Made by a program: the position numbers and the translations under genes | Part shown: one piece after another, positions 5,900-59,760 of the stretch | How the letters are laid out: the number at the start of each line of letters is the position of its first letter | Position numbering within the stretch: position 1 is the first letter of the stretch | From: Eledone cirrhosa | Taxonomy: Eukaryota | Length of the DNA stretch: 64,000 nucleotides | Direction: 5' to 3' | Assembly (NCBI GenBank): GCA_964016885.1 | Contig: OZ024748.1 | Span: forward strand, 29,884,001 to 29,948,000 | The notes under the pieces: model-generated | Databases searched by the model: none | Told to the model about the DNA's origin: nothing | Seen by the model: only the letters and a program-made list of their open reading frames with translations

Positions 5900-7041
5900 G
5901 AGTGATGAAGAATGTGTCCAGCATGTGCGACCCAACAGAAATGGAAAGACACATCCAACACTTCATCAACCGCATGCAGTTCTCTGGCTACAACCAAAGA
6001 GACAGAGTCAGAGTATACGAAGGAGCCATGGAAAAGTATAAGACCCTCATAGAACTGGACATGAAAGGAATTTGCCCATTATACAGGAGCAAATCATGGA
6101 ATAGCTTAGATAGGGCTAGACATAAGATAGGGAAGGCCACATCATGGTACGACAACCAGAGTGTCATGTTTGTGGACGCCTCCACTGGAGGGAAATTAGC
6201 TAACCAGTGTAGAAAGGCCCTGAGAAAGACCCACTTAAAAATAAAGGTGGTAGAAAAGCCAGGAACCACCATAAAATCCCTGATCAGCAAAACCTACCCT
6301 TTTAAGAAAACCCACTGTACCAATAGGAAATGTATCATATGTAAGGTGAACCCCCGGATAAACTGTAAAACTAGAAACGTAGTCTATAGCATAAGATGTA
6401 CAGAGGGTACTTGCAGAAACATGACAACAACATACATAGGTGAAACAGCTCGTAGCATAGGTGAAAGGATAGACCAACACTGGGGGGAACTAAAAGGACG
6501 AAAAAACGGGTCAGTACTATACGAACATGCTAGACAACAACATGACGGTAACATAGACAACATAGAAATTAGAATAATATCTAAACATAAGAATGACCCA
6601 GCAGATAGGCAAATCAGAGAGGCCAGTGAAATAGAAATTAGAAGACCAAAGCTAAACAGAAAGAATGAGTGGAACAACAACAACACCCAAACAAACAACA
6701 CTGACCTAAGAGAAGTATAAATAAATAAAATAAAATAAAATAAAATAAGATAAATAAATACATACACAAGCACAATAACAACAAGCACATAAACACACAC
6801 TAGTCACCCAGCAGACACAACACTATACACACTAGTCACACAGCACACATAACACTATACACACGCAAACGCATGCGCAAAGAAGACAAAATAAAATAAA
6901 CAAACAAGCAAATAAATAAATAAATATATAGACAGACTGAATAAAAAATGGCGTAGACATACAACACAACAGGAGGAAAAAATATAACACCACTGACGAT
7001 GTTGCAGATGTGCAACGAAAGATTTATGTAAATTATGTAAA
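5897..7041 (+). repeat. 5' pseudo-LTR of PLE family B (copy of 9771-10917)
   Basis: ORF 5800..6720 reproduces the C-terminus of ORF 8123..10594 with only two amino-acid differences (T/P, K/R). Confidence 0.95.
6991..7028 (+). ncRNA. Minimal type I HHR (PLE family B, 5' pseudo-LTR)
   Basis: CA-CUGACGA-U-GUUGCA(GAUG)UGCAAC-GAAAG(AU)UUA-UG; perfect 6-bp stem II, only 2-bp stem I. Confidence 0.62.
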
Positions 7042-23391: not shown

Positions 23392-23543
<152 letters not shown>

Positions 23544-23571
23544 TATCAGTGTTCTGAAATAGCGATGTATG

Positions 23572-23886
23572 TATGAATGAATGTATAGTGTATTTGATAA
23601 TATACTGTATGTTTATTTAAAAACATTTTGAAGACCATTCGCTATGAGTTTTAAAGTAGTGACTTGTCACTTACTTAGTCTTGGCAAAATAAAGGGAAGC
23701 AATCGACAGCTGTTTCTCGTTTGTTAACGGTTAACAAACGAGAAACAGCTGTCGATTGCTTCCCTTTATTTTGCCAAGACTAAGTAAGTGACAAGTCACT
23801 ACTTTAAAACTCATAGCGAATGGTCTTCAAAATGTTTTTAAATAAACATACAATATATTATCAAATACACTATACATTCATTCATA
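23572..23886. repeat. Near-perfect palindrome, 157-bp arms, 1-nt centre at 23729
   Basis: Arms checked base by base at the ends and centre, one mismatch seen; contains the HHR 3' half GAAAC-AGCU-GUC at 23742-23753. Confidence 0.95.
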
Positions 23887-23995
23887 TATATATATATATA
23901 TGTTGGAAAAGTAAATAACAACAACAAGAAGTACAGTTACGAAAGGTGTTAGGTATTAGGTTCACGCTTGAGAGTGGGGGGTGGGGTGGGGCCCA

Positions 23996-24590
<595 letters not shown>

Positions 24591-24606
24591 ATATATATAT
24601 ATATAT

Positions 24607-25738
24607 ATATGAGAGACGTAAAATAAGAAAATTATAAAATTAACTTACTTACTAAAATATCACTTCCAACTAATTAGTTTCTGGAATGGAGTAAATATAT
24701 TTTCCGAAGAAGATATAGAGAAACATTCCGCCGTCAGGGAAGTCTATTCTCAGCTAAGTTTCCAGGCAAAGCGAGGACTCTGGAAACTTATTAAAAAATA
24801 ATTCAGTGGATAGGAAATAGCAAAGCGTGGACTGAATTCCTAGCCATTGAGAAAATCACTGCCTCTGCGTCTGTGGCAAATTCAAAAAGAATCAATCACG
24901 TGACATCGAGGTCAATCAGTGGAAAGTGGTTTGTTAAGAAGACGGCGGCCTGCCTGCTACCATAGCAGCAGTCATGGCCAATATTGCTCGACAAATAATT
25001 TGGAGATAATTATAAAGAATTAATATCTAGTAACATTTATATACATACAGATGCATATCAATGCTAGCAAATATATAGGTTTTGTCTTAGTAACATTGTG
25101 GTTCAATGTATGGGGTTGCAGAACAATAATATGTTACTAAGACAAAACCTATATATTTGCTAGCATTGATATGCATCTGTATGTATATATATGTTACTAG
25201 ATATTAATTCTTTATAATTATCTCCAAATTATTTGTCGAGCAATATTGGCCATGACTGCTGCTATGGTAGTAGGCAGGCCGCTGTCTTATTAGCAAACCA
25301 CTTTCCACTGATTGACCTCGATGTCACGTGATTGATTCTTTTTGAATTTGTCACAGACGCAGAGGCAGTGATTTTCTCAATGGCTAGGAATTCAGTCCAC
25401 GCTTTGCTATTTCCTATCCACTGAATTATTTTTTAATAAGTTTCCAGAGTCCTCGCTTTGCCTGGAAACTTAGCTGAGAATAGATTTCCCTGACGGCGGA
25501 ATGTTTCTCTATATCTTCTTCGGAAAATATATTTACTCCATTCCAGAAACTAATTAGTTGGAAGTGATATTTTAGTAAGTAAGTTAATTTTATAATTTTC
25601 TTATTTTACGTCTCTCATATTATTGTTCTGCAACCCCATGCATTGAACCACAATGTTACTAAGACAAAACCTATATATTTGCTAGCATTGATATGCATCT
25701 GTATGTATATATATGTTACTAGATATTAATTCTTTATA
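24607..25738. mobile_element. Non-autonomous 522-bp HHR-bearing unit: one full inverted copy plus about 1.16 tandem copies
   Basis: TGTTACTAAGAC recurs at 25132 and 25654 (period 522); 24609-25133 is one complete permuted unit on the minus strand; both outer ends run into (TA)n. Confidence 0.85.
25484..25565 (+). ncRNA. Type I HHR (A9G variant); mirror copy at 24662-24743 minus
   Basis: A(U/C)UUCC-CUGACGG-C-GGAAUG...CAUUCC-A-GAAAC(UAAUUA)GUU-GGAAGU; 6-bp stems I and II, palindromic loop III. Confidence 0.7.
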
Positions 25739-29672: not shown

Positions 29673-29828
29673 ACGAAGGGAATGTGGTAAGGAACCAGGT
29701 GGACCATAACGCACCAAAGTACTCAATACTTAGGGTAGTAGAGTGGGTAATAGGAACAAGTAAGACCCCGACGGCTGAGCTCAAGCCGTTTCGACGGCTT
29801 GAGCTCAGCCGTCGGGGTCTTACTTGTT

Positions 29829-29833
<5 letters not shown>
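29673..29833 (-). mobile_element. Short HHR-fragment element with fold-back (40-bp arms 29750-29789 and 29794-29833)
   Basis: Carries GAAAC-GGCU-UGAGCUC-AGCC-GUC-GGGG; family copies at about 28186, 37799-37990 and 51425-51484, with a variant at 58021-58193. Confidence 0.75.
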
Positions 29834-37798: not shown

Positions 37799-37990
37799 TA
37801 ATAGGAACGAGTAGGACCCCAACGGCTGAGCTCAAGCCGTTTCGACGGCTAATTCTGAATTAGCCGTCAAAACGGCTTGAGCTCAGCCGTCGGGGTCCTA
37901 CTCGTTCCTATTACCCACTCTACTACCCTAAGTATTGAGTACTTTGGTGCGTTATGGTCCACCTGGTTCCTTACCACATTTCCTTCGTTA
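37799..37990 (+). mobile_element. Short HHR-fragment element with fold-back centred at 37856
   Basis: 57-bp arms around GACGGCTAATTC-T-GAATTAGCCGTC; same family as 29673-29833; (TA)n on both sides. Confidence 0.78.
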
Positions 37991-44431: not shown

Positions 44432-44437
<6 letters not shown>

Positions 44438-44566
44438 TTAGAAATTATAAGCTTTCACCGTATTTTAGACTAAAGAAATTTCTAGCCTGATAGTGGGGTT
44501 TATAAACCCCACTATCAGGCTAGAAATTTCTTTAGTCTAAAATACGGTGAAAGCTTATAATTTCTA

Positions 44567-44573
<7 letters not shown>
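44432..44573. repeat. Perfect palindrome, 71-bp arms, no loop, flanked by (TA)n on both sides
   Basis: Centre GTGGGGTTTA|TAAACCCCAC preceded by CTGATA. Confidence 0.95.
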
Positions 44574-56321: not shown

Positions 56322-56372
<51 letters not shown>

Positions 56373-56378
<6 letters not shown>

Positions 56379-56739
56379 GATATTAATAAATGGAAACTAT
56401 ATTTATAAAACCATATTTATTTCATTATATATATTTCAAGGATACCAAGTTACATTATGGTATGCCTTCATCAGACAAAATACAATATATAACAGTTTTA
56501 TAATAGACATATAGTCTTAACACTATAACTTACTAAAGTAAACAAATCACTATCCTGATGGCCTCCAAAAACAACGGTCAATTTTTAAAGGGGTACGTCA
56601 ATGTCTATTTATAAAACTGTTATATATTGTATTTTGTCTGATGAAGGCATACCATAATGTAACTTGGTATCCTTGAAATATATATAATGAAATAAATATG
56701 GTTTTATAAATATAGTTTCCATTTATTAATATCGTATAT
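56373..56739. repeat. Inverted repeat (56373-56510 and 56601-56739), each arm with an HHR
   Basis: Arms near-identical; about 90-bp spacer. Confidence 0.9.
56631..56693 (+). ncRNA. Type I HHR; mirror copy at 56419-56481 minus
   Basis: AUUUUGU-CUGAUGA-AGG(C)AUACCA...UGGUAU-CCU-U-GAAAUAUAUAUA-AUGAAAU. Confidence 0.75.
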
Positions 56740-58020
56740 CTACTCCAAATATTTGTCGAGTGCTTTATATCAGTTATAAAAATATTTGCTTGTTGTATCC
56801 CAACAATTTAAATAAAACTTTTGCATATATATATATATATATATTTATAAATATATATACACATATGCGTGTCTGTGTATGTGTGTACGCGCGTGGGAGT
56901 ACGTGTGTGTGTGTATCTATGTATCTGTATACTTATTTGACTTCCAAAGTCCCCCTCCTCCATATACCTCTTTCTTTCTCACTTCTCCCCCCCCCCCCCC
57001 CTCCTCCCAATGCTCTTCTAACACAATCCAACTTTTCTCTCCACTTTCGTCTTCCTTATCAGTTTCTTTTCCTTCTCCGTTTATTCTTCTTCCACCATCT
57101 GTTTCACACTGCTAAACGTCACACGCACACACACACATCGGTTATATATCACCGACCCCTACACCACCACCACCGCCAGCACTGACACCACCATTACCAC
57201 CACCACCAACACCAACACTACCACCACCACCAGCAACACTGCCACGACCACCACCATCACCACCACCACCAACACTACGACGACCATCACTACCAACACT
57301 ACCACCACCATCAACACCACCACCACCATCACCACTACCACCGCCATCACCATCACCACCACCCACCACCACCACCACCACCACCCACCCATCACCACCA
57401 ACAGCAGCAGCACTAACCAAAATCAGAAACTTCTGTTATCGTCTGCTTCTACCGTTCAAGGCCGTTCTTTCTTCCAGCCTCAAGGCCAACACTGTTCCTC
57501 ATCGCTTTGCCTATTAACTATATAAGTGTTTGTTGTTGTTGTTGCTGTTGATGGTAGTGTTTGTGTTGGTGGTGTTATTGTTGCTGTTGTTGGTGGCGGT
57601 GGTGTTGGTAGTTGTTGTTGTTGGCGCTGGTGTTGGTAGTGTTGTTGTTGCTGCTGTTATTACGTCTATCCTTGTTGTTATTGTTGCTGCTGTTGTTATT
57701 GTTGCCTCTGTCCTTGTTTACCCCCTCCCCCTCCCTGTTTGCTTAACACGATGTAGATCGTAAGGTTGGAATAACACACAGGAACTTTCAATTAAATACA
57801 CTTGAAATATTGGCCAATATAACTTATTCTAGAAGTGTCAGCAGTTTGAGGCTTTACTTGGCTTGGTTTCCTTTTACTATCAAACTGTTTCACCTGTATA
57901 CTCCATTTACATCTCCAGGAAAGTGATACACATCACAACTTCAAACTCACGAAATTTTCAAAGAGTGACATTGAGAGTTACCAGTTTAAATAAGTAAGAT
58001 TATGTCCAGCTAAGTACTCG

Positions 58021-58193
58021 ATACTCGGGAAAGTAGAATGTAGGTATAATGAAAAGTTAATACACGGTAGCTGAGCTCACGCCTTTGAAACGTTAGTGCC
58101 CGACAGCTGAGCTCGCGCCGTTTCAAAGGCGTGAGCTCAGCCACTGTGTATTAACTTTTCATTATACCTACATTCTACTACTTTCCCGAGTAT
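58021..58193. repeat. Fold-back copy of the GAGCTC HHR-fragment family
   Basis: Arms 58021-58092 and 58119-58193; minus strand GAAACGGCGCGAGCUCAGCUGUC-GGG. Confidence 0.75.
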
Positions 58194-58745: not shown

Positions 58746-58867
58746 GCTGATGTTACATAAATCATTTAATCATTATAATTATTTCCATGCAATCAAGAAG
58801 TCCTTCGAAGGACTTCTTGATTGCATGGAAATAATTATAATGATTAAATGATTTATGTAACATCAGC
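58746..58867. repeat. Perfect palindrome, 61-bp arms
   Basis: Centre AAGAAGTCCTTC|GAAGGACTTCTT. Confidence 0.95.
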
Positions 58868-59363: not shown

Positions 59364-59760
59364 ATATATTAGTTTGATTAAAATGACAGGAGGCCGGACT
59401 GGTGAAAATCCTTTAAAGTTTTATTGTTGCAAAAACACAATATATATTTCAATGGCCTGGTTACGTAAGATCCTGGCGGCATCATCAGGTTCGTATTACA
59501 TAATTAGTTACTCAATAAAGGAATTATGGCAAACACAGACAGAGTAAATATAAACAAAGCATATTCGATGAGGAGAAACCTGCGAAATAGGTGTTATTGA
59601 TGCTAGAAACCATCTCCTTTATTGATTAACCAATTGTGCAATACACACCTGATGATGTCACAAGGATCTTACGTAACCAGGCCATTGAAATATATATAGC
59701 CTTTTTGCAACAAGAAGATCACCAGTCCAGCCTCCTGTTATTTTAATCAAGCTAATATAT
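59364..59760. repeat. Diverged inverted repeat (59364-59490 and 59648-59760) with decayed HHR cores
   Basis: CCTGATGATG...GGCCATTGAAATATATAT in both arms; AAAATGACAGGAGGCC also at 35885. Confidence 0.7.

What the first reader, a model, noticed from the sequence alone, without database searches (positions are those of the whole stretch)
23572..23886. Long palindromes whose symmetry axis lies in a hammerhead helix
Seen: this 157-bp-arm palindrome has GAAAC-AGCU-GUC 13 nt from its centre; the palindrome centred at 37856 is centred on the stem directly before GAAAC-GGCU...AGCC-GUC, and the one at 29750-29833 folds at the same junction. Each retains only the 3' half of the ribozyme, duplicated outward. 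Inference: RT copying from the 3' end stalls in the ribozyme hairpin, and the cDNA snaps back and self-primes second-strand synthesis. This gives the HHR helices a second role as fold-back primers and implies the template was uncleaved or religated at the GUC site.
Basis: partly seen in the sequence, partly recalled or inferred. Interest (0 to 1): 0.7.

Follow-up and report, generated by a model that had tools for sequence, protein, structure and literature searches.

The report
Penelope stubs from two opposing cDNAs
The palindromes are real back-to-back stubs of Penelope-like jumping genes, but they were likely made by two separate DNA copies started from opposite strands of the target and joined head to head, most often where the element's RNA is predicted to begin inside the ribozyme, rather than by the ribozyme's helices folding back as primers.

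Summary
All three palindromes are real but belong to two families. 37856 and 29750 are stubs of a Hydra-like Penelope element (family B: 3,531-bp unit, 717-aa ORF, at least 22,312 tail ends). 9,210 palindromes are centred in its hammerhead helix II region, so the enrichment is real there. Fold-back self-priming fails, however. The tail-less arm reaches at least 10 nt further than the tailed arm in 12 of 57 stubs against 1, and further in 14 of 26 long insertions against 5. The stop coincides with a TATA/Inr-like start, and an extra G precedes it 3,045 times against 599 for A. Two target-primed cDNAs likely ran off the capped RNA end and were joined. The featured 23572-23886 palindrome belongs to a roughly 315-bp retrozyme-like repeat (family A) with no helix II hotspot: 0 of 35 other junctions are symmetric. 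The layout is known (Arkhipova 2013), and this scan reached the same reading earlier on other DNA of this genome. No RNA evidence yet.

The parts
23449..23540 (.). (TA)n target, left flank (approximate start)
23541..23729 (-). Family A tailed arm (roughly 315-bp retrozyme-like repeat, 3' part); 23541-23571 is the roughly 30-nt tail outside the palindrome
   Evidence: matches monomer positions ~124-315 to the family's canonical 3' end
23705..23716 (-). 3' half of hammerhead core (GAAAC-AGCT-GTC), mirror copy
23726..23729 (.). Junction: 4-nt overlap shared by both arms at the 5' strand of helix II, leaving a 1-nt centre
   Evidence: read against full copies L003-L030
23730..23886 (+). Family A tail-less arm, ending at the family's second terminus (monomer ~288)
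23742..23753 (+). 3' half of hammerhead core (GAAAC-AGCT-GTC); helix I 3' strand follows
23887..23901 (.). (TA)n target, right flank
29673..29799 (-). Family B tailed arm (127 nt of the predicted RNA front end; tail 29673-29749)
29794..29833 (+). Family B tail-less arm; 6-nt overlap with the tailed arm at 29794-29799, centre on the GAAA loop of an alternative hairpin
   Evidence: same junction class as L214
37799..37856 (-). Family B tail-less arm with intact GAAAC-helix III-GTC
   Evidence: tail-less end joined to (TA)n in raw reads of three other samples
37857..37988 (+). Family B tailed arm (132 nt; tail 37914-37988), starting 6 nt downstream of the predicted transcription start

Best explanation
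These palindromes are head-to-head insertions of Penelope-like elements in (TA)n, likely made when both strands of the cut target each prime their own cDNA (one at the tailed, one at the tail-less start site) and the two cDNA ends are then joined. Shown: arm layout, two fixed outer ends, arm-length asymmetry, junction diversity. In family B (37856, 29750) the predicted capped RNA start lies in the loop region of helix II, 138 nt upstream of the tail end and 231 nt upstream of the ORF's ATG. Both cDNAs would run off this end, often gaining a cap-templated base or untemplated A's, lose 0-7 nt, and be joined bluntly, through 1-6-nt microhomology or with short inserts (inferred). The centre therefore falls in the ribozyme because the RNA likely begins there, and that front end holds only the 3' half of the ribozyme, so it could not cut itself in cis. 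In family A (23572) the template is likely multimeric or circular with no fixed 5' end, so junctions scatter; this copy's two cDNAs likely happened to end together and anneal through 4 nt at helix II.
For: Family B, 90 copies taken in genome order from the tail-end pattern (90 of 22,312): 57 scored inverted, 25 non-inverted, 8 set aside. Both arms end 128-143 nt from the tail end in 41 of 57; stop rate 0.092-0.104 per nt there against 0.003-0.008 downstream. Tail-less arm further by >=10 nt in 12, tailed arm in 1 (p=0.003); 7 copies have non-overlapping arms; only 10 of 57 have the >=3-nt offset that fold-back without untemplated bases needs; zero-loop centres occur. Long insertions: tail-less arm longer in 14, tailed in 5, symmetric in 4, unclassifiable 3 of 26 pairs (my reading; strict subset 7 of 9), e.g. 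2,545 versus 80 nt. Family A: tail-less further in 12 of 18. Stop site is an Inr-like A with a TATA-like 8-mer at -29 to -22 (consensus recalled). G before it in 3,045 copies versus A in 599, native base T or C; about 16-17 of 30 G's not explained by the other arm (my reading). In vitro, a Penelope protein cuts and extends both target strands from two RNA start sites that delimit the tail (PMC11167929, passages).
Against: No RNA data: the start site and cap are inferred from DNA. Among 79 truncated arms reaching the predicted start, the preceding base is T 43, C 17, G 14, A 5, so G is not dominant, and 27 arm ends lie 1-5 nt beyond the predicted start (attributed to A-tailing or start heterogeneity, not shown). 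Arms share subfamily alleles in 46 of 48 palindromes, as fold-back also predicts; two different RNAs are not shown. 4 of 26 long insertions are near-symmetric, and the 29750 junction keeps a native loop with a 6-nt stem, both compatible with fold-back. Later deletions across a palindrome centre could create some asymmetry. The A-run/T-run test was uninformative (2 of 5). The featured locus was not spanned by reads.
Confidence: 0.65

Rival explanations
1. One reading: one cDNA stalls in a ribozyme hairpin, folds back on a hammerhead helix and primes its own second strand.
For: Family B centres cluster in the helix II region; arms share alleles 46 of 48; 29750 and L214 keep a native loop with a 6-nt stem; 11 of 17 helix-II-centred palindromes of a third family keep the exact native loop; 4 of 26 long insertions are near-symmetric; proposed in PMC3846280 (passages).
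Against: The second arm often contains sequence that the first never copied (12 versus 1; 14 versus 5; 12 of 18); its outer end is fixed; family B centres rarely keep the native helix II loop; helix II joins are 17 against 16,406 in the third family and not enriched in family A (5 of 93 arm ends). It can account for a minority only.
Confidence: 0.1
2. Two target-primed cDNAs, but both stop at a structural or protein-bound barrier in the distal part of the long helix II of a longer RNA, not at a 5' end.
For: The stop zone overlaps the 3' strand of the predicted distal helix (fold); stops spread over 131-143; family A shows a milder excess at the foot of extended helix I (22 of 93, p=0.0045, zone chosen after looking).
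Against: Arms cross helices I, III and the more strongly paired proximal helix II (pairing 0.77 versus 0.60) at low hazard; excess G and TATA/Inr-like spacing; none of 5 tailed arms that pass the zone stops in the next 256 nt.
Confidence: 0.15
3. Longer fold-back palindromes, or a palindromic master copy, later trimmed by centre deletions.
For: Long palindromes are unstable (general knowledge, recalled); centres are diverse.
Against: Deletion would not favour the tail-less arm, give a sharp upper bound at 143 or add G; the same centre occurs in both orientations relative to the tail, which a single master would not give.
Confidence: 0.07
4. Assembly fold-back artefacts.
For: No read or contig spans the 23572 palindrome.
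Against: Arms differ (1 and 2 mismatches), end at two family-defined termini, flanks are not mirrored; raw reads of three other samples show the family B tail-less end joined to (TA)n (1,730-2,112 reads each) and a non-overlapping junction.
Confidence: 0.03

Closest known systems
Insertion units of endonuclease-bearing Penelope-like elements with inverted pLTR, tail and junction palindrome (PMC3846280, PMC8557442; passages)
   Same: Head-to-head inverted 5'-truncated copy, tail on one arm only, palindrome at the junction, microsatellite target.
   Different: Family B tail is 78 nt, not 30-40; arm lengths argue against the self-priming proposed in PMC3846280; a sharp junction hotspot is quantified here.
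Hydra clade of Penelope-like elements (PMC8557442, passages)
   Same: Family B parent ORF shows RWR, DKT, CxCX5C, no CCHH, CxxC and CxH near the end, hammerhead, (TA)n target.
   Different: Unit is 3,531 bp (Hydra generally under 3 kb); no tree was built; Pfam gave no hit.
Anolis Poseidon in vitro system (PMC11167929, abstract and passages)
   Same: Both target strands cut and extended; two RT start sites delimit the tail; uncleaved RNA is the main template.
   Different: The passages I read do not address how inverted arms are joined or a run-off at the RNA 5' end; different clade.
Animal non-LTR retrozymes (PMC7229834, search listing only; bioRxiv 10.64898/2026.07.22.740005, listing and passages)
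   Same: Family A is a tandem, ORF-less, roughly 315-bp hammerhead repeat.
   Different: Here it also shows the Penelope tail and inverted-arm signature; in the preprint the word 'inverted' occurs only in a reference title and 'tail' not at all. No circular RNA was seen here.
Minimal hammerheads of Penelope pLTRs (PMC4209133, passages)
   Same: U3-A8 core variant, palindromic helix III, pairs of ribozymes on opposite strands.
   Different: Family B has a long helix II and a 6-7-bp helix III.
L1 twin priming (recalled, no call)
   Same: Second target strand primes a second cDNA; 7 of 57 stubs have non-overlapping arms.
   Different: The second start is fixed and the arms usually overlap fully.

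Membership tests
EN+ Penelope-like element (family B) | Single ORF with RT and C-terminal GIY-YIG endonuclease | tested here: met
   717-aa ORF in L277 with YRDD, VIY..YIG and LN..EL motifs read by eye; Pfam gave 0 families, so this rests on motifs.
EN+ Penelope-like element (family B) | pLTR with hammerhead; partial tandem arrangement | tested here: met
   3,531-bp tandem units, each with a full hammerhead; folds as a hammerhead in L109.
EN+ Penelope-like element (families A and B) | Inverted 5'-truncated copy with tail on one arm | tested here: met
   B: 57 of 90 scored inverted, tail 78 nt. A: 35 head-to-head junctions in 60 loci, tail about 30 nt.
EN+ Penelope-like element | Target-site duplication | tested here: inconclusive
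   Both flanks are (TA)n, so a duplication cannot be discerned.
Hydra clade (family B parent) | RWK-like, DKT, CxCX5C linker, no CCHH, CxxC and CxH near conserved E/N, (TA)n target | tested here: met
   All read in the protein against the description (RWR for RWK).
Hydra clade (family B parent) | Generally short (<3 kb) | tested here: not met
   Unit 3,531 bp; the paper says 'generally', so not exclusionary.
Hydra clade (family B parent) | Phylogenetic placement of RT/EN | not tested
   No reference proteins fetched, no tree built.
Type I hammerhead ribozyme | Core CUGANGA or U3-A8 variant, GAAA, NUH, three helices | tested here: met
   Full motifs in non-palindromic copies: A, B (4,682 matches). 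A's minimum-energy fold shows helix I and part of helix II only; one B subfamily has a C3/A8 mismatch.
Type I hammerhead ribozyme | Self-cleavage at GUC | not testable with these tools
   Needs an in vitro assay.
Non-LTR retrozyme (family A) | Tandem non-coding monomer of a few hundred bp with one hammerhead | tested here: met
   315-nt monomer in L007, arms up to 507 nt, 1.6 monomers; typical size range recalled. Flanks were read in 9 loci only; no ORF search was run on family A loci.
Non-LTR retrozyme (family A) | Circular RNA intermediate | not testable with these tools
   No RNA holder listed.

The most novel reading that the evidence does not exclude
The Penelope promoter sits inside its own ribozyme. 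The mRNA front end carries the only uncut RT start sites, while the complete ribozyme at the 3' repeat cuts them off, so a dimeric RT copying from both target strands mostly deposits 60+138-nt palindromic stubs and only uncut read-through RNA yields full copies: the hammerhead works as a brake on full-length transposition.
Probability: 0.25. Interest if true: 0.65.

Novelty: new member of a known kind. Interest (0 to 1): 0.42.

Why it matters
How Penelope-like elements build their inverted ends is called undefined in PMC8557442, and the standing proposal is self-priming, possibly on an antisense template (PMC3846280). Thousands of young copies here give a genomic test that favours two target-primed cDNAs on a sense template and yields a precise prediction (a capped start 138 nt upstream of the tail end). 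The proposed second role of hammerhead helices as primers is at most minor. At least 9,210 short perfect palindromes from one family may also matter for genome stability and double-stranded RNA in this animal (not tested).

Tried and rejected
Rfam scan of the window gave no hammerhead family at E<=1, only hairpin look-alikes below their gathering scores. A search for a short-helix-II ribozyme in family B (309 matches) returned mostly palindrome centres; the real helix II is longer. An apparent fixed G/A difference between arms, which suggested an inherited palindromic master, was ascertainment by my query. A splice acceptor at the stop site was considered and rejected: no constant upstream exon appears at the junctions. 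A Neptune assignment (note) was dropped after reading the Hydra definition. One search's family A hazards were unreliable (the extension stopped at an indel in the reference) and were replaced. One search folded the wrong stretch. One search crashed after printing; six short-arm values were read from its output. A-run/T-run test uninformative. No RNA holder listed. Reads on the featured locus were inconclusive, and RAD reads end at the centre of family B, probably at a restriction site. Literature searches listed no paper stating the two-cDNA/cap run-off model; the library lacks most subscription journals, and supplements were not read.

Full report
Observation. The window lies at G000:C8:29884001-29948000 in a 3.0-Gb genome rich in (TA)n. 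A palindrome scan confirmed 23572-23886 (157-bp arms, 1 mismatch), 37799-37913 (57 bp, 2 mismatches) and 29750-29833 (40 bp, none), each with the 3' half of a hammerhead facing outward. They belong to two families. The 29750 centre is the GAAA itself, 10-15 nt from the 37856 centre, in a hairpin that is not a hammerhead helix.

Family B (37856, 29750). An exact pattern for the tail end has 22,312 matches. Non-palindromic copies show the whole ribozyme: helix I, a UUGA(G/U)AA core, a long helix II, GAAAC, helix III, GUC; L109 folds this way. A pattern through the core has 4,682 matches. The parent is a 3,531-bp unit found in tandem, with a 717-aa ORF whose ATG lies 231 nt after the start of the palindromic segment. 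The protein has the motifs listed for the Hydra clade in PMC8557442 (passages); Pfam gave nothing and no tree was built. The stubs are thus copies of the front of the element.

Hotspot. 9,210 palindromes are centred within 17 nt between two helix II 3' strands. I took 90 copies in genome order: 57 scored inverted, 25 non-inverted (5 read through the ribozyme), 8 set aside (internal deletions, diverged, both arms tailed, or a long inverted arm). Counting back from the tail end, 42 of 57 tailed arms and 50 of 57 tail-less arms end at 128-143, both in 41. The stop rate is 0.092-0.104 per nt there and 0.003-0.008 downstream; at the GUC site it is 0.0078 (2 arms).

Fold-back test. If the tailed cDNA folded back, the tail-less arm could never reach further upstream than it. 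It does: by at least 10 nt in 12 of 57, against 1 the other way (p=0.003); 7 copies have arms that do not overlap at all; only 10 of 57 have the offset of 3 nt or more that a loop needs without untemplated bases. Zero-loop centres on self-complementary 2-4-mers occur. In 26 long head-to-head pairs taken from the first 100 listed matches, the tail-less arm is longer in 14, the tailed in 5, 4 are near-symmetric and 3 unclassifiable (my reading; 7 of 9 where both ends were called strictly). Against my reading: arms share subfamily alleles in 46 of 48 palindromes, the 4 symmetric long copies and the 29750-type junction fit fold-back, and later deletions could add asymmetry. In vitro, a Penelope protein cuts and extends both target strands from two start sites that delimit the tail (PMC11167929, passages), which supplies the chemistry for two cDNAs.

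Why the stop is there. My first reading was a stall in helix II; earlier scan notes pointed to a capped RNA start, which I then tested. The peak includes an Inr-like A at 138 with a TATA-like 8-mer at -29 to -22 (consensus recalled). The native base before it is T or C (21 of 21 read-through arms); truncated arms have T 43, C 17, G 14, A 5. Genome-wide, G precedes it 3,045 times and A 599 times although this window is about 38% G+C. In 30 G copies, 10 are explained by the opposite arm by script and 3-4 more by eye, leaving 16-17. An extra G is the expected trace of a copied cap (recalled). Arms cross the more strongly paired proximal helix at low hazard. The case is circumstantial: 27 arm ends lie 1-5 nt beyond 138, and no RNA run was available.

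Family A (23572). Copies show a tandem monomer of about 315 bp with a full U3-A8 hammerhead, a tail of about 30 nt and (TA)n flanks, like a non-LTR retrozyme inserted in Penelope style. From the 71 matches of a tail-end pattern, 68 were fetched or returned as loci and 60 kept after removing duplicates. Of 93 arm ends, 5 fall in the core/helix II zone (rate 0.0036 versus 0.0059 overall), 4 near GUC, and 22 at the foot of extended helix I (p=0.0045, zone chosen after looking); 0 of 35 junctions are near-symmetric; the tail-less arm reaches further in 12 of 18. Arms up to 507 nt pass the GUC site, so the template was uncut, multimeric or circular. The featured palindrome is an outlier: its arms share 4 nt around a 1-nt centre, easier as annealing of two ends than as a hairpin, though a 3-bp fold-back is not excluded.

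Generality. A third hammerhead family in the window has 16,406 intact ribozymes but 17 helix-II-centred palindromes, 11 with the exact native loop. Helix II can join arms, in about 0.1% of copies.

Artefact check. Raw RAD reads of three other samples show the family B tail-less end joined to (TA)n (2,112, 1,730 and 1,872 reads) and a non-overlapping junction (54-163 reads, 1-2 starts). The featured locus was not spanned; unequal arm ends, mismatches and unmirrored flanks argue against an assembly artefact.

Known work. PMC3846280 (passages) describes inverted pLTRs, the tail and junction palindromes and proposes self-priming. PMC8557442 (passages) calls the origin of these structures undefined. 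PMC4209133 (passages) reports U3-A8 cores and opposite-strand ribozyme pairs. Five searches listed no paper stating the two-cDNA, cap run-off model; no supplements were read. This scan noted the same reading several times in this genome; those notes are leads, not support.

Verdict. Interest 0.42, for the testable account of Penelope inverted ends.

Noticed in passing
window 24607-25620 and on to about 25760: Inverted repeat with 490-bp arms, 34-nt centre and a partial third copy in tandem, bounded by (TA)n; my two motif scans found no hammerhead in it.
   Followed up: no
window 4007, 24131, 32286, 35675 (variants at 6993, 10869, 51205): Third hammerhead family (CUGA(A/G)GA core, 6-bp helix II); 16,406 exact copies genome-wide, often in head-to-head pairs; 24131-24597 has a tail-to-tail pair around (TA)/(CA)n.
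   Followed up: partly
window 56370-56742 and 59421-59716: Head-to-head pairs with CUGAUGA...GAAAUAUA hammerhead-like motifs on both strands and about 100 nt between the arms.
   Followed up: no
window 58032-58179: 61-bp-arm palindrome resembling a diverged relative of family B, with a 26-nt centre that looks templated from a related ribozyme sequence.
   Followed up: no
window 44432-44573 and 58746-58867: Perfect zero-loop palindromes (71 and 61 bp arms) of unidentified families; the first is bounded by (TA)n on both sides with symmetric ends.
   Followed up: no
G000:C1:437202031-437213184 (L277): Four tandem family B units, period 3,531 bp, each with an open 784-codon frame; many near-identical copies genome-wide suggest recent activity.
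   Followed up: partly
L088, L157 and matches: A family B subfamily has a C3/A8 mismatch in the ribozyme core yet has spread, suggesting that cleavage is dispensable.
   Followed up: no
L031, L034, L045, L047, L049, L057: Runs of up to 17 A and/or T at family B centres, beginning at the predicted RNA start: possible terminal-transferase or slippage activity of this RT.
   Followed up: partly
L126, L166, L185, L196: A few family A tailed arms end within 2 nt of the GUC site (monomer 148-152), a possible minority of cut templates; not significant.
   Followed up: partly
window 53112: Isolated compact hammerhead-like motif (CUGACGA, short helix II, GAAAC-UA-GUA) of another family.
   Followed up: no
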